From: a phage
Sequence record: PZ445428.1
DNA: 64,000 nt
Direction: 5' to 3' (one strand)
The stretch's first letter is position 1; every line of letters starts with the position of its first letter. The translations under genes were made by a program, and so were the position numbers. The notes under the pieces are model-generated. The model saw nothing but the letters and a program-made list of their open reading frames with translations. It was not told the origin of the DNA and made no database searches. Of the stretch, positions 33,523 to 36,446 are shown piece by piece.

Positions 33523-33840
33523 ATGACTTTCCATATTCTGATTGATGATGTTCGTAACTTAAATGGAATGGATATTATCATTCGAACCCCCGAAGCCGCT
33601 GTTGAGTTTCTGAATACAACCGATACCACTGGTCATTTCGTTTATATGGACAACGATCTGGCTGTAGATGGTATGGAAGGTTATCAAATTCTTCGTTTAC
33701 TCTTAGAATTTGGCCAGAGACCCAAGAAAGTGGTACTAGTAACCTCTAACCCGGTAGCTAAAGAGACCATGCGTAATGATCTCCTAGACGAAGGGTATCA
33801 AGAAAGCCCTAATCGTATTGAGTACGATTGGCCGGAGTAA
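33523..33840 (+). CDS. hypothetical protein with receiver-domain-like acidic pocket
   Basis: ILIDDVR...VYMDNDL...VVLVTSNP arrangement is CheY-like; 105 aa. Confidence 0.45.
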   Translation: MTFHILIDDVRNLNGMDIIIRTPEAAVEFLNTTDTTGHFVYMDNDLAVDGMEGYQILRLLLEFGQRPKKVVLVTSNPVAKETMRNDLLDEGYQESPNRIEYDWPE

Positions 33841-34297: not shown

Positions 34298-34305
34298 AAA
34301 TTCGG

Positions 34306-34334
34306 TTGCTTAATGCTTTAAAAACCTGTATAAT
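34306..34334 (+). promoter_or_regulatory. sigma70 early promoter
   Basis: TTGCTTaatgctttaaaaacctgTATAAT. Confidence 0.6.
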
Positions 34335-34365
34335 ACTTTCATAAATTAATGAGAGGAAGCGAAAC

Positions 34366-34536
34366 ATGAAATCAGTTGTAATTATTGGTGTTAATACTCG
34401 TGGTATTCGTACTACTAAAACTGTTAAAACTGCTAAGATTTCTGATGTTACATCAAACCCTAGCAAGTTTGATTTCGCTAAAGTCTCGGCAGTTATGACT
34501 GAAAAATCTTTTAATCAAACACTGGAAGCAAAATAA
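34366..34536 (+). CDS. hypothetical small protein (56 aa, not in ORF track)
   Basis: ATG after GAGAGGAAG; reads MKSVVIIGVNTRGIRTTK...; stop overlaps next ATG. Confidence 0.4.
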   Translation: MKSVVIIGVNTRGIRTTKTVKTAKISDVTSNPSKFDFAKVSAVMTEKSFNQTLEAK

Positions 34537-34979
34537 TGGAAGAGAATATCCTAGACGTTCTGCGTAGAGCTTTACAAGCATCTAAAGTAAATGGTTCTGA
34601 TAAAGAAGTAGTGAAGAGCTACCAGACTATAATTGGCGATCTTCAGCGGGTAGATAAAGACTTTATCACTTCTGAACAATTTGTAAATTATCTGAAAGCT
34701 CAGTTAAAGAGCATTGAAGCAACTAAAGCAAAACTGCAGGGTGCTGATCTGCAAAACTATAGTCTGCAATCTGCTCAGTATGAATATGTACTTAACAGTT
34801 ATTTAGAGAAGTATCTGCCTCCGCAGATGTCCTCTACTGAAATACGCAATTACTTTGCAGAATTAGTTAAACTGAATCCAGGTATTACCAAAGGTACCCT
34901 GATGAAAGCGATTAAGGAAGAATTTTCTGGTCGTTATGATGGTAAACTTGCAGCTCAAGTTGCTGGCGAATTTAATTAA
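34536..34979 (+). CDS. GatB/YqeY-domain protein
   Basis: C-terminal YLEKYLPPQMSSTEIRNYFAELV...GTLMKAIKEEFSGRYDGKLAAQVAGE resembles the YqeY family. Confidence 0.55.
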   Translation: MEENILDVLRRALQASKVNGSDKEVVKSYQTIIGDLQRVDKDFITSEQFVNYLKAQLKSIEATKAKLQGADLQNYSLQSAQYEYVLNSYLEKYLPPQMSSTEIRNYFAELVKLNPGITKGTLMKAIKEEFSGRYDGKLAAQVAGEFN

Positions 34980-34987
34980 AAATTGAT

Positions 34988-35016
34988 TTGCTAAATGCTT
35001 CAAAAGTTGATATAAT
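34988..35016 (+). promoter_or_regulatory. sigma70 early promoter driving the ORF-free structured region
   Basis: TTGCTAaatgcttcaaaagttgaTATAAT. Confidence 0.6.
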
Positions 35017-35021
35017 AGTTA

Positions 35022-36144
35022 CATAAATTAGAGAGAACAGCGAGCCGATTACGCTGAGTGCAGAATCCCAACCGGAGCGCATTGAATAGAGTCGGTGAGT
35101 TGTACTAGGATTCCTGATTAGAGAGGTTCCAGGCACCGCAGGGTTTACTCTGTACCGCTTCCAGCTATCGATATCAGGAATGAATAGTGCGCAAAACTCG
35201 GGAGCTGTCCCGAAACCTCGTAAACTCTTCTCTCTAATTTAATTAAACGATGGATCTCAGCACGAGCCAGTCACAGTGTGAAACATGGTGCGTGACCCAG
35301 GGGTAGAAGACTAGGAGTTGGCTTGAGAAACCCATGTAACTCCTAACGCTGACCCGTCTAGGTTGCAAATCGAGACATGTGTATATCACAATGAGGTAAG
35401 TGACCATCAAATAGTGGGTAGCGTAATTTTTAGGTGAATGATGGAGGTCTAACGACTGAGGGCATCATCTCGGGATTACCAGCCACGAAATAGTGGGGTG
35501 TCGAACTGACTTATGTAATAACACTGCCGTCCTAGTATAAACGGTAATATCAAGCCGTAACTGGTGGAAGATGTAGGTTCGAATCCTACGGTCGGTAAGA
35601 ATTAGATAACTCGGGCTTATACCGGATAAGCATTCGCTGCGGAAGTACATACTATGACGGTTCAGGAGGTACGCCGCCTGATCAGTATGAGGTTAGAATC
35701 GAAACCGCTAAACCACGAGGAAACCTGACGGCCTCAGCCAAACTCGGAAACTCAGGATCGCTGCTTAGTGCGTGCCCTGTTTTAACCTAGAGACTAAGCA
35801 CTCCAGCTTCGCATCGAAAATCGGAGGTGCGATTCTACTAGACCGCGTAACTATGAGAGGGGGAAATGCTCACATGAAACATGTGACTAATGGTGCACAA
35901 TAGAACAGGTAAACGCGATAAGTCCTGTTGAGTAGCAGCAGAAGGCTGGGAGTCATGACCTGAGCCTAACCGAGTTCTCCACATAGGGAGGACATAACCA
36001 CGAAGTCACCTTGACTTAAACTGGAAGATATTGTCTGACGGCAGGGCTGAAGAGCTTAATCTGAGGGGGCTGACCCTACCTACCGCCGGGTATCTTTAAG
36101 AGCTTTTGAGAGAGTTCTTAAAAATACCTAACAAAATCTATTTT
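35022..36144 (+). ncRNA. candidate structured stable RNA(s) or tRNA-like elements, about 1.1 kb ORF-free
   Basis: No ORF on either strand apart from one spurious minus ORF; higher GC; many hairpins (TAGGAGTT...AACTCCTA; AGAGAGAA...TTCTCTCT about 200 nt apart); T-arm-like GTAGGTTCGAATCCTAC at 35573-35589. Confidence 0.4.
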
Positions 36145-36219
36145 CGGGGTGTAGTCTAAGGGATAGGCAGGAGTCTTCTAAATTCCTTTATGCAGGTTCG
36201 AATCCTGTCACCTCGGCCA
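36145..36219 (+). tRNA. tRNA-Arg (anticodon TCT)
   Basis: Hand-folded cloverleaf: acceptor CGGGGTG/CACCTCG, anticodon loop CTTCTAA, T-arm GCAGG-TTCGAAT-CCTGT, encoded CCA. Confidence 0.8.
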
Positions 36220-36245
36220 ATTTTATTAACTAGTAGGAAAATAAA

Positions 36246-36446
36246 ATGAAAACACGATATATAGTAAAAGCAGTAGGTGAACATTCTCAAGTAAATACCA
36301 CTGATGTTACAGCACTAGCGTTTGAAGTAGTCTCCGGTATAGTTATATTTCATAATGGAGATATTAAAGCACCTGAATTTGCTGTGGATTCTGGCCTGTT
36401 TATTTCTGCCACTAAAGTAACTGTAGTATCTAACTCTTCTAAATAA
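36246..36446 (+). CDS. hypothetical protein
   Basis: 66-aa ORF. Confidence 0.4.
   Translation: MKTRYIVKAVGEHSQVNTTDVTALAFEVVSGIVIFHNGDIKAPEFAVDSGLFISATKVTVVSNSSK

What the first reader, a model, noticed from the sequence alone, without database searches (positions are those of the whole stretch)
34536..34979. GatB/YqeY-domain protein beside the tRNA and structured-RNA cluster
The C-terminal half resembles the YqeY/GatB domain associated with tRNA-dependent amidotransferases, and the gene sits immediately upstream of the promoter driving the structured-RNA region and tRNA-Arg. It could be a phage tRNA-handling factor.
Basis: partly seen in the sequence, partly recalled or inferred. Interest (0 to 1): 0.45.

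Follow-up and report, generated by a model that had tools for sequence, protein, structure and literature searches.

The report
T5-like phage YqeY-family protein
This gene of a T5-like coliphage encodes a small all-helical protein of the YqeY family, a relative of the tRNA-gripping tail of the GatB amidotransferase subunit. Related phages already carry this annotation, and the protein is probably a non-enzymatic helper acting on tRNA or translation, though nobody has tested what it does.

Summary
The window is Escherichia phage TrudiGerster (Bas27, Demerecviridae). The ORF at 34536-34979 (+) is a real gene under strong purifying selection (dN/dS 0.08). It encodes a 147-aa free-standing YqeY-family protein.

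It has no GatB catalytic domain. The database names 'tRNA amidotransferase' and 'recombination-related exonuclease' (the latter in this phage's own record) are therefore wrong.

The gene is the T5p079 ortholog. That order holds in four Demerecviridae lineages checked; in a fifth the gene lies inside the tRNA array.

The most likely role is a non-catalytic tRNA/RNA-binding cofactor supplied to a host that lacks yqeY. This is inferred, not shown. The gene is truncated in viable T5st0, and outside this phage family YqeY genes are usually not next to tRNA genes.

This is a known kind of gene, already annotated as YqeY in relatives. Interest is modest.

The parts
34306..34334 (+). Promoter-like site (TTGCTT, 17-nt spacer, TATAAT) upstream of the two-gene unit DUF7616 + YqeY
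   Evidence: Read directly from the sequence. The -35 hexamer matches only 3 of 6, so the scan did not list it. Window 34300-34348 is 82% identical to the annotated T5 promoter P16-17 region (blastn; annotation).
34366..34536 (+). 56-aa ORF (DUF7616 / phrog_5077). Its TAA stop overlaps the YqeY ATG (TAATG), which suggests translational coupling.
   Evidence: Pfam DUF7616 E 6.3e-35; PHROG 5077 E 2.7e-34. No Ribosomal_S21 hit at E up to 1. Absent upstream of YqeY in DU_PP_V and Proteus phage M4H10_20.
34536..34979 (+). YqeY-family protein gene (147 aa plus stop); ortholog of T5p079
34536..34820 (+). N-terminal four-helix sub-domain (aa 1-95; helices 5-19, 23-39, 46-66, 70-93); acidic, pI 5.4
   Evidence: AF2 secondary structure; full-length superposition on YqeY structures; pI.
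34821..34976 (+). C-terminal three-helix 'tail' sub-domain (aa 96-147; helices 100-113, 119-129, 136-145); basic, pI 8.7. It carries the family's conserved motif P95-x-Q97 ... G120 M123 K124 K127 G132 Y134 D135 G136 K137 A139.
   Evidence: The motif is shared by 41 T5-like and 216 other relatives. It aligns with B. subtilis YqeY 'VMGAIMPKVKGKADGS'. This segment corresponds to the GatB tail pocket described in PMC2811023.
34988..35016 (+). Strong sigma-70 promoter-like site (TTGCTA, 17-nt spacer, TATAAT, extended -10 TG) 9 nt after the YqeY stop; counterpart of T5 promoter P16-17
   Evidence: 10 of 12 matches; T5 annotation; blastn homology. No terminator-like site lies between the YqeY stop and this promoter.
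35024..36144 (+). RNAX-like non-coding region between the promoter and tRNA-Arg (context, not part of the protein). It contains a tRNA-like element at 35525-35598.
   Evidence: Partial blastn homology to T5 RNAX: window 35490-35635 at 90% and 35858-36026 at 81%. T5 misc_RNA 'RNAX' annotation. tRNA-like element found by ARAGORN and by Rfam at 36.2 bits. The start coordinate is inferred from the promoter position.
36145..36219 (+). tRNA-Arg (UCU), first canonical tRNA of the 29-tRNA region
   Evidence: Rfam tRNA, 49.3 bits.

Best explanation
The ORF encodes a free-standing, non-enzymatic YqeY-family protein with a 4-helix N-domain and a 3-helix tail. It is transcribed with a 56-aa DUF7616 gene from a sigma-70-type promoter at the 5' edge of the phage's tRNA region.

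Shown here:
- Membership of the YqeY family.
- The fold.
- Strong purifying selection.
- Retention of the family's conserved tail motif.
- Absence of any GatB catalytic part.
- Conserved placement beside or inside the tRNA array throughout Demerecviridae.

Inferred:
- The tail sub-domain works like the GatB/GatE tail and the YqeY appendix of Deinococcus GlnRS. A conserved pocket (G120, M123, G132, Y134, G136) ringed by conserved lysines (K119, K124, K127, K137) would dock on the D-loop/elbow of tRNA or a tRNA-like RNA.
- The protein would then act as a low-affinity cofactor that helps the phage's own tRNA set, or another step of translation, for example aminoacylation or aa-tRNA stabilisation.
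- It does so in a host (E. coli) that has no yqeY of its own.
- It is an accessory fitness gene, not an essential one.
For: Identity:
- Pfam YqeY E 8.8e-6 over the full length.
- PHROG 1460 E 1.7e-43.
- hhalign probability 99.6%, E 6.5e-24, against PF09424 proteins. Those proteins in turn hit the PDB YqeY structures at 1e-11 to 4e-16 and the GatE tail at 1.8e-4.

Real gene:
- dN/dS 0.08.
- Present in 462 phage records, 458 of them at 80% or more coverage.

Binding surface:
- The most conserved segment is the tail motif, shared with 216 distant relatives.
- It aligns with the stretch that forms the conserved hydrophobic pocket surrounded by basic residues in the GatB tail, proposed to recognise the tRNA D-loop (PMC2811023).
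- The C-domain pI is 8.7 against 5.4 for the N-domain.

Context:
- The order YqeY, then promoter, then RNAX-like region, then tRNA-Arg holds in T5, Epseptimavirus, Pectobacterium DU_PP_V and Proteus M4H10_20, down to 31% protein identity.
- The gene lies inside the tRNA array in Vibrio Demerecviridae.
- It lies directly after RtcB in BcepSaruman.
- The literature notes a YqeY protein adjacent to tRNAs in phage pf16 (PMC5587285).

Host and precedent:
- E. coli lacks yqeY (PMC13374519).
- The YqeY appendix raises the tRNA affinity of D. radiodurans GlnRS (PMC1865053).
Against: - No binding or functional data exist for any phage YqeY.
- In the only biochemical study, the isolated YqeY domain was a very weak tRNA binder and did not work in trans (PMC1865053).
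- The protein has zero net charge, with 19 K+R against 19 D+E.
- Synteny within Demerecviridae is not independent evidence, because these genomes are collinear.
- In 6 of 7 non-Demerecviridae phage loci no tRNA gene lies within 10 kb of the YqeY gene.
- The homolog Aim41 serves as a protein-protein bridging subunit of Pichia complex I, so the fold does not imply RNA binding.
- In T5 the st0 deletion endpoint lies inside T5p079 and removes the C-terminal ~90 codons, i.e. the whole tail domain. T5st0 is a viable laboratory strain (established knowledge), so the protein is dispensable under laboratory conditions.
Confidence: 0.5

Rival explanations
1. Ribosome-linked role. Like bacterial YqeY, which is usually encoded with ribosomal protein bS21, the phage protein acts on the 30S subunit or translation initiation rather than on tRNA. 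It would tune host ribosomes toward phage messages.
For: - yqeY is most often in an operon with rpsU (PMC1865053).
- It is co-regulated, and possibly translationally coupled, with bS21-2 in Francisella (PMC13374519).
- Preliminary evidence suggests YqeY joins bS21 in the OLE RNP (PMC12054373).
- The phage gene is likewise preceded by, and overlaps (TAATG), a small basic ORF.
Against: - The upstream 56-aa ORF is DUF7616, with no Ribosomal_S21 hit at E up to 1.
- That ORF is missing in other Demerecviridae, which keep YqeY.
- No phage bS21 was seen near any YqeY locus examined.
- No direct ribosome-binding data exist for any YqeY.
Confidence: 0.15
2. Protein partner of the neighbouring RNAX-like structured RNA. 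The two would form a phage ribonucleoprotein, by analogy with the reported YqeY-OLE RNA association.
For: - The gene lies immediately upstream of the RNAX region, and no terminator is predicted between them.
- A 0.8-1.1 kb non-coding gap containing a tRNA-like element follows YqeY in Markadamsvirinae, DU_PP_V and Proteus M4H10_20.
- YqeY is reported (unpublished or preliminary) to bind OLE RNA (PMC12054373).
Against: - In Vibrio Demerecviridae the YqeY gene is followed within a few hundred bases by ordinary tRNA genes, with no long non-coding gap.
- YqeY genes in other phage families have no such RNA next to them.
- Rfam has no family for the region apart from the tRNA-like hit.
Confidence: 0.1
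3. RNA-independent adaptor or decoy. The helical protein binds a host or phage protein, for example a synthetase, a tRNA-targeting defence nuclease or another enzyme, as Aim41 bridges two domains of complex I.
For: - The overall charge is neutral.
- The tRNA region of T5 is a known counter-defence locus: tRNA-Lys against PARIS and tRNA-Tyr against retron Eco7 (PMC11464382).
Against: - The conserved residues lie in the same tail motif as in bacterial YqeY and the GatB/GatE tails, which argues for a shared ancestral ligand.
- No partner has been identified.
Confidence: 0.15
4. It is an enzyme, as the database names say: a tRNA-dependent amidotransferase (GatB-like) or a recombination-related exonuclease.
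For: Only the annotations: 'tRNA amidotransferase' (PHROG 1460 and many RefSeq records) and 'recombination-related exonuclease' in TrudiGerster and others.
Against: - The 147 aa are entirely accounted for by the non-catalytic YqeY fold.
- There is no GatB_N/cradle, GatB_Yqey (PF02637) or nuclease domain hit even at E up to 10, and no NCBIfam match.
- The GatB-specific extra helix and Lys-rich KxGKxK motif are absent; the sequence here is ELVKLNPGITKG.
- E. coli makes Gln-tRNA and Asn-tRNA directly and has no GatCAB (established knowledge).
- In Schizotequatrovirus the YqeY gene lies next to uvsY, a plausible source of the 'recombination' label.
Confidence: 0.01

Closest known systems
Free-standing bacterial YqeY proteins (B. 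subtilis 1NG6; C. jejuni 8XJE; V. parahaemolyticus 8XJG; Pfam PF09424)
   Same: - Same size (about 145 aa).
- Same conserved tail motif.
- Function experimentally unknown in both.
   Different: - Only 13-21% identity to the solved structures.
- The single-sequence Pfam score is 0.7 bit below the gathering score.
- It is phage-encoded, in a host that lacks yqeY (PMC13374519).
- It is not linked to rpsU; it sits beside a tRNA array instead.
T5p079 of phage T5 and the PHROG 1460 / 'YqeY domain-containing' proteins of T5-like phages
   Same: - Orthologs at 47-88% identity in Markadamsvirinae.
- Same position before promoter P16-17, RNAX and tRNA-Arg.
   Different: None of substance. The TrudiGerster record merely carries a wrong product name.
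C-terminal tail domain of GatB/GatE (tRNA-dependent amidotransferases)
   Same: - Homologous three-helix tail. The intermediate YqeY profile hits the GatE tail at E 1.8e-4.
- The conserved pocket segment is at the equivalent position and is proposed to read the tRNA D-loop (PMC2811023).
   Different: - No cradle (catalytic) domain.
- No GatA/GatC partners are known.
- No extra helix alpha14 or Lys-rich motif.
- Pocket Ala is replaced by an invariant Tyr134, and Pro by Gly136.
- No PF02637 hit.
YqeY appendix of Deinococcus radiodurans GlnRS
   Same: The same domain family used as a non-catalytic tRNA affinity enhancer. This is the only YqeY with a demonstrated function (PMC1865053).
   Different: There it is covalently fused and works only in cis; the phage protein is free-standing.
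YqeY-like proteins of other large phages (pf16 gp65, BcepSaruman gp130, Serratia phage BF, Atu_ph07, Bacillus phage G gp509, Vibrio phages)
   Same: - Same fold: 18 BFVD hits at Foldseek probability 1.00.
- They recur in large, tRNA-bearing phages.
- Some sit next to tRNA genes or RtcB.
   Different: - Most are not adjacent to tRNA genes.
- Sequence identity is 14-28%.
Aim41 (mitochondrial YqeY homolog), bridging subunit of Pichia pastoris complex I
   Different: It acts as a protein-protein bridge in a respiratory complex (PMC12487887), which shows that the fold is not diagnostic of tRNA binding.

Membership tests
YqeY family (Pfam PF09424; YqeY/Aim41 superfamily) | Full-length sequence-profile match to the family | tested here: met
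   - Single sequence: 26.3 bits (GA 27), E 8.8e-6, covering profile positions 22-138 of 143, which is borderline.
- Family level: 15 of 22 orthologs hit PF09424.
- hhalign probability 99.6%, E 6.5e-24, against PF09424 proteins.
- 57 of 63 profile-search hits are PF09424 members.
YqeY family (Pfam PF09424; YqeY/Aim41 superfamily) | Two-domain all-alpha fold: N-terminal 4-helix domain plus C-terminal 3-helix tail, about 140-150 aa, free-standing | tested here: met
   - The AF2 model has pLDDT 89.8 and 7 helices arranged 4+3.
- The top 6 Foldseek PDB hits are all YqeY.
YqeY family (Pfam PF09424; YqeY/Aim41 superfamily) | Conserved tail motif (P-x-Q-[LM]-[ST]-E ... G-x-x-M-K-x-[LI]-K ... G-x-[YA]-D-G-K-x-A) | tested here: met
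   P95, Q97, G120, M123, K124, K127, G132, Y134, D135, G136, K137 and A139 are all present. Each is the majority residue in both the 41 T5-like and the 216 other relatives.
YqeY family (Pfam PF09424; YqeY/Aim41 superfamily) | Frequent (not obligatory) operon with rpsU (bS21) | tested here: not met
   The upstream gene is DUF7616, with no S21 hit. This is a typical context rather than a defining feature, so it does not exclude membership.
YqeY family (Pfam PF09424; YqeY/Aim41 superfamily) | Binding of tRNA or another RNA | not testable with these tools
   This needs EMSA or CLIP. It has been shown only for the cis-acting domain of D. radiodurans GlnRS (PMC1865053).
GatB subunit of tRNA-dependent amidotransferase ('tRNA amidotransferase') | Catalytic cradle domain (GatB_N) preceding the helical and tail domains; protein of about 475 aa | tested here: not met
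   The protein is 147 aa and has no GatB_N hit at E up to 10. The fold is fully explained by YqeY.
GatB subunit of tRNA-dependent amidotransferase ('tRNA amidotransferase') | GatB_Yqey domain model (PF02637), with the GatB-specific helix alpha14 and Lys-rich KxGKxK motif | tested here: not met
   There is no PF02637 hit. The loop between tail helices 1 and 2 reads KLNPGITKG, with no extra helix. The motif definition comes from PMC2811023.
GatB subunit of tRNA-dependent amidotransferase ('tRNA amidotransferase') | GatA and GatC partners encoded by the phage or the host | not tested
   The genome was not scanned domain by domain. None is annotated in the 10 kb around the gene. E. coli has no GatCAB (established knowledge).
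Recombination-related exonuclease (the product name in the TrudiGerster record) | A nuclease catalytic domain | tested here: not met
   There is no nuclease family in Pfam, NCBIfam or PHROGs. The all-helical YqeY fold accounts for the protein.

The most novel reading that the evidence does not exclude
The phage YqeY is a dedicated chaperone or cofactor for the phage's own tRNA set and the adjacent tRNA-like RNAX. For example, it might promote charging of phage tRNAs by host synthetases, or shield their elbow/D-loop from host tRNA-targeting defence nucleases. Because E. coli has no yqeY, T5-like phages would then be the first clean genetic system to reveal what the long-enigmatic YqeY family does.
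Probability: 0.15. Interest if true: 0.6.

Novelty: already known. Interest (0 to 1): 0.25.

Why it matters
YqeY is a widespread bacterial and mitochondrial protein. Its function has stayed unknown since its 2003 structure, although it is linked by homology to tRNA recognition in GatB/GatE and by operon to ribosomal protein bS21.

A YqeY gene that is strongly conserved in T5-like phages could be a convenient handle on that question. It sits at the edge of their near-complete tRNA set, and it is expressed in a host that lacks the family.

For genome annotation, the practical point is that two product names in wide circulation for this gene are unsupported: 'tRNA amidotransferase' and 'recombination-related exonuclease'. 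Both should read 'YqeY-family protein'.

Tried and rejected
1. **Is the upstream 56-aa ORF a phage bS21, mimicking the bacterial rpsU-yqeY operon?** Rejected. It is DUF7616 with no S21 hit, and it is absent in other Demerecviridae.

2. **Is tRNA adjacency a general property of phage YqeY genes?** Not supported. Six of seven non-Demerecviridae loci have no tRNA gene within 10 kb.

3. **Does the 'histidyl tRNA synthetase' next to YqeY in phage PHB05 support a tRNA link?** No. That ORF has no Pfam support.

4. **The search for related loci with divergent alignments A2 and A3.** Both failed because no stretch was conserved enough. Loci were gathered through tblastn of the phage collection instead.

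5. **NCBIfam.** It has no model that matches.

6. **Single-sequence PDB search.** It gave only a marginal 1ng6 hit (E 0.0077) among low-complexity noise. Fold comparison and profile-profile comparison were needed.

7. **Literature searches for T5 st0 together with tRNA.** They found nothing in the held library. The st0 statement rests on the GenBank feature table plus general knowledge that T5st0 is viable.

Full report
**What the sequence is.**
Window 34300-36300 is 100% identical to Escherichia phage TrudiGerster (Bas27; Demerecviridae, Markadamsvirinae, Epseptimavirus). The ORF at 34536-34979 (+) begins with ATG and encodes 147 aa. It is bas27_0079, named 'recombination-related exonuclease' in that record. 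Orthologs in other T5-like phages are variously called 'tRNA amidotransferase', 'YqeY protein domain-containing protein', 'GatB domain containing protein', 'carbon-nitrogen ligase' or 'hypothetical protein'.

**Is it a real gene?**
Yes.
- tblastn finds it in 462 phage records, 458 at 80% or more coverage, with identity ranging from 100% down to 31%.
- Against the ortholog of Salmonella phage STWB21, synonymous sites are nearly saturated (dS about 1.05) while dN is 0.085, giving dN/dS of 0.08.
- A GGAAG motif lies 7 nt before the ATG. The ATG overlaps the TAA stop of the preceding 56-aa ORF (TAATG).

**Is it a YqeY domain?**
- On its own the protein scores 26.3 bits against Pfam YqeY PF09424 (gathering score 27; E 8.8e-6). 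The match runs from residue 25 to 142 and covers profile positions 22-138 of 143.
- No other Pfam family is credible, NCBIfam has nothing, and PHROG 1460 matches at 1.7e-43.
- Fifteen of 22 orthologs hit PF09424 independently.
- A profile of the orthologs retrieves 753 representative proteins at E of 1e-3 or better, nearly all 135-155 aa. Of the 63 top ones scanned, 57 are PF09424 members, with a best E of 3.5e-27.
- Profile-profile comparison with 25 bona fide PF09424 proteins gives probability 99.6% and E 6.5e-24 over 136 columns.
- That intermediate profile hits the solved YqeY structures at 4e-16 to 1e-11 and the tail of GatE (1zq1) at 1.8e-4.
- An AlphaFold2 model built on the ortholog alignment is confident (mean pLDDT 89.8). 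It has seven helices arranged 4+3.
- The six best Foldseek PDB matches are the YqeY crystal structures of C. jejuni, B. subtilis and V. parahaemolyticus.

Membership in the YqeY family is therefore established.

**What it is not.**
- The 147 residues are fully used by the non-catalytic YqeY fold.
- There is no GatB cradle domain, no hit to the GatB_Yqey model PF02637, and no nuclease domain.
- The GatB-specific extra helix and Lys-rich motif described by Nakamura et al. (PMC2811023) are absent.

The names 'tRNA amidotransferase' and 'recombination-related exonuclease' are annotation artefacts. One possible origin of the second name is that in KVP40-like Schizotequatroviruses the YqeY gene lies directly after uvsY.

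**Anatomy and conservation.**
- The N-domain (aa 1-95) is acidic (pI 5.4). The tail (aa 96-147) is basic (pI 8.7). The whole protein has zero net charge.
- Conservation is concentrated in the tail: P95, Q97, G120, M123, K124, K127, G132, Y134, D135, G136, K137 and A139. These are the majority residues both in 41 T5-like proteins and in 216 distant relatives.
- HMMER aligns 'LMKAIKEEFSGRYDGK' with B. subtilis YqeY 'VMGAIMPKVKGKADGS'.
- In the GatB tail the corresponding segment forms the conserved hydrophobic pocket (V449, M452, G457, A459, P461), ringed by basic residues, that is proposed to fit the tRNA D-loop (PMC2811023).
- The phage family keeps the Met and the Gly, and has an invariant Tyr where GatB and B. 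subtilis YqeY have Ala.

**Genomic context.**
- A promoter-like TTGCTT-17-TATAAT at 34306-34334 precedes the DUF7616 ORF (34366-34536) and the YqeY gene. This 49-bp stretch is 82% identical to the annotated T5 promoter P16-17.
- Nine bases after the YqeY stop lies a better promoter, TTGCTA-17-TATAAT with an extended -10 TG, at 34988-35016. No terminator-like site lies between them.
- Next comes about 1.1 kb without credible + strand ORFs, containing a tRNA-like element at 35525-35598. Then comes tRNA-Arg(UCU) at 36145-36219, the first canonical tRNA. The 29 ARAGORN predictions, which include the tRNA-like element, run up to 50449.
- In T5 the homologous elements are annotated as T5p079, promoter P16-17, RNAX (719 nt), tRNA-Arg and a band-7 protease. 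The window shares parts of RNAX at 81-90% identity.

**How far does the tRNA linkage go?**
- The order YqeY, then 0.8-1.1 kb of non-coding sequence, then tRNA-Arg recurs in Pectobacterium phage DU_PP_V (Mccorquodalevirinae, 39% identity) and Proteus phage M4H10_20 (Novosibvirus, 31%).
- In the Vibrio phages Bennett (Ermolyevavirinae) and VF16 (a similar gene order; its record gives no family assignment) the gene sits inside the tRNA array.
- These genomes are collinear, so this amounts to one conserved arrangement, not several independent observations.
- Outside the family, YqeY-like genes are common in large phages. The phage collection holds 601 records, and BFVD holds 18 structures with Foldseek probability 1.00, including pf16, Serratia phage BF, Atu_ph07 and Bacillus phage G.
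- In six of seven such loci no tRNA gene lies within 10 kb: SCTP-2, Cassandra, PHB05, BcepSaruman, Vibrio 1.081.O and one metagenomic contig. phiM12 has one tRNA 8 kb away.
- Suggestive exceptions exist. A genuine RtcB RNA ligase (E 1.5e-119) lies directly upstream in BcepSaruman. A peptidyl-tRNA hydrolase and an RNA ligase lie within 10 kb in phiM12. The literature notes that pf16 gp65 lies beside tRNA genes (PMC5587285).
- In the window itself, a cREC_REC-domain protein lies two genes upstream. This domain is predicted to process cyclic phosphates and is linked to RNA ligases (PMC7824862).

**Mechanism.**
What is shown is a conserved, non-catalytic YqeY protein with an intact family motif, encoded beside the phage tRNA array.

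What is inferred is that it acts as a low-affinity cofactor. Its tail pocket would dock on the elbow/D-loop of tRNA or a tRNA-like RNA, as proposed for GatB/GatE. This is consistent with the one functional study, in which the YqeY appendix of D. radiodurans GlnRS lowers KM and raises kcat for tRNA-Gln (PMC1865053). E. coli has no yqeY (PMC13374519), so the phage brings a factor that its host lacks.

I give this about 0.5. The main reservations are:
- The free domain was a very weak binder and was inactive in trans in that study.
- The phage protein has zero net charge.
- Aim41 shows that the fold can serve purely as a protein bridge.
- The T5 st0 deletion ends inside T5p079 and removes the whole tail domain, yet T5st0 is viable (established knowledge). 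T5 variants with deletions in the tRNA region are described as non-essential (PMC11464382).

The rivals are a ribosome/bS21-linked role (0.15), a protein partner of RNAX (0.10), an RNA-independent adaptor or decoy (0.15), and an enzyme (0.01).

**Novelty and verdict.**
The family assignment already exists in public annotation: PHROG 1460, and RefSeq names such as 'YqeY protein domain-containing protein' and 'GatB/YqeY domain-containing protein'. YqeY-like genes in tRNA-bearing phages have been remarked on since 2006 (PMC1524935, PMC5587285). The finding is therefore already known as a kind.

The additions here are:
- A firm fold-level confirmation.
- The correction of two misleading product names.
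- The depth of the synteny with RNAX and tRNA-Arg.
- The caveat that tRNA adjacency does not generalise beyond Demerecviridae.

Interest is modest (0.25). It would rise if the protein proved to be the handle that reveals the function of the YqeY family.

Noticed in passing
window 33523-33840 (+): A 105-aa protein with a cREC_REC domain (PF20274, E 1.1e-14) lies two genes upstream of the YqeY gene. The domain is a divergent receiver domain predicted to process cyclic phosphates and linked to RNA ligases and NAD/ADP-ribose conflict systems. In the record it is annotated only as hypothetical (bas27_0076).
   Followed up: partly
window 34972-35136 (-), 35243-35410 (-), 35465-35650 (-): Three small minus-strand ORFs annotated as hypothetical proteins (bas27_0080 to 0082) lie inside the RNAX-like non-coding region. 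One of them overlaps the tRNA-like element. They look like spurious gene calls in a transcribed structured-RNA region.
   Followed up: no
window 35525-35598 (+): A tRNA-like element sits inside the RNAX-like region (ARAGORN 'tRNA-Ser' with the odd anticodon ACU; Rfam tRNA 36.2 bits). The surrounding 146 bases are 90% identical to part of T5 RNAX. A 'tRNA-OTHER' pseudogene is annotated at a comparable position in Pectobacterium phage DU_PP_V.
   Followed up: partly
window 35036-35489 (+): About 450 bases at the 5' end of the RNAX-like region have no blastn counterpart in T5 RNAX. The region between promoter and tRNA-Arg is about 1.1 kb here against 719 nt in T5. In STWB21, an ORF of 170 aa is annotated just before tRNA-Arg in the same interval.
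   Followed up: no
window 34300-34348 and 34980-35030 (+): The promoter upstream of the DUF7616-YqeY unit and the promoter downstream of it are sequence-related copies (ttgctNaatgcttNaaaa...tataata). The upstream copy aligns at 82% with the T5 promoter P16-17.
   Followed up: partly
window 34366-34536 (+): The 56-aa DUF7616 ORF overlaps the YqeY start codon (TAATG). Its dN/dS against STWB21 is 0.63, far weaker constraint than on YqeY (0.08). It is absent from the non-Markadamsvirinae Demerecviridae examined.
   Followed up: partly
L008 8764-10471 (Burkholderia phage BcepSaruman): NUDIX hydrolase, RtcB (Pfam E 1.5e-119) and the YqeY-like protein are consecutive same-strand genes. This is an RNA-repair context for a phage YqeY, independent of the T5 family.
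   Followed up: partly
L011 9753-10177 (Sinorhizobium phage phiM12): The YqeY-like gene is annotated as two short consecutive ORFs, gp304 'tRNA amidotransferase' and gp303 'YqeY domain'. This suggests a frameshift, a sequencing error or a pseudogene.
   Followed up: no
L007 9416-9988 (Escherichia phage PHB05): The 190-aa ORF annotated 'histidyl tRNA synthetase', directly upstream of the YqeY-like gene, has no Pfam match at E of 0.01 or better. The name is unsupported.
   Followed up: yes
L009 9591-10417 (Vibrio phage 1.081.O, Schizotequatrovirus): The YqeY-like gene directly follows and overlaps uvsY (Pfam UvsY, E 7.5e-43). This is a possible origin of the 'recombination-related' label that has spread to T5-like YqeY genes.
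   Followed up: partly
L003 1-272 (phage T5, AY734508): The 3' end of the T5 st0 deletion and its 10-bp recombination repeat lie inside T5p079, the YqeY ortholog. The common laboratory strain T5st0 therefore carries only the first ~56 codons of this gene.
   Followed up: partly
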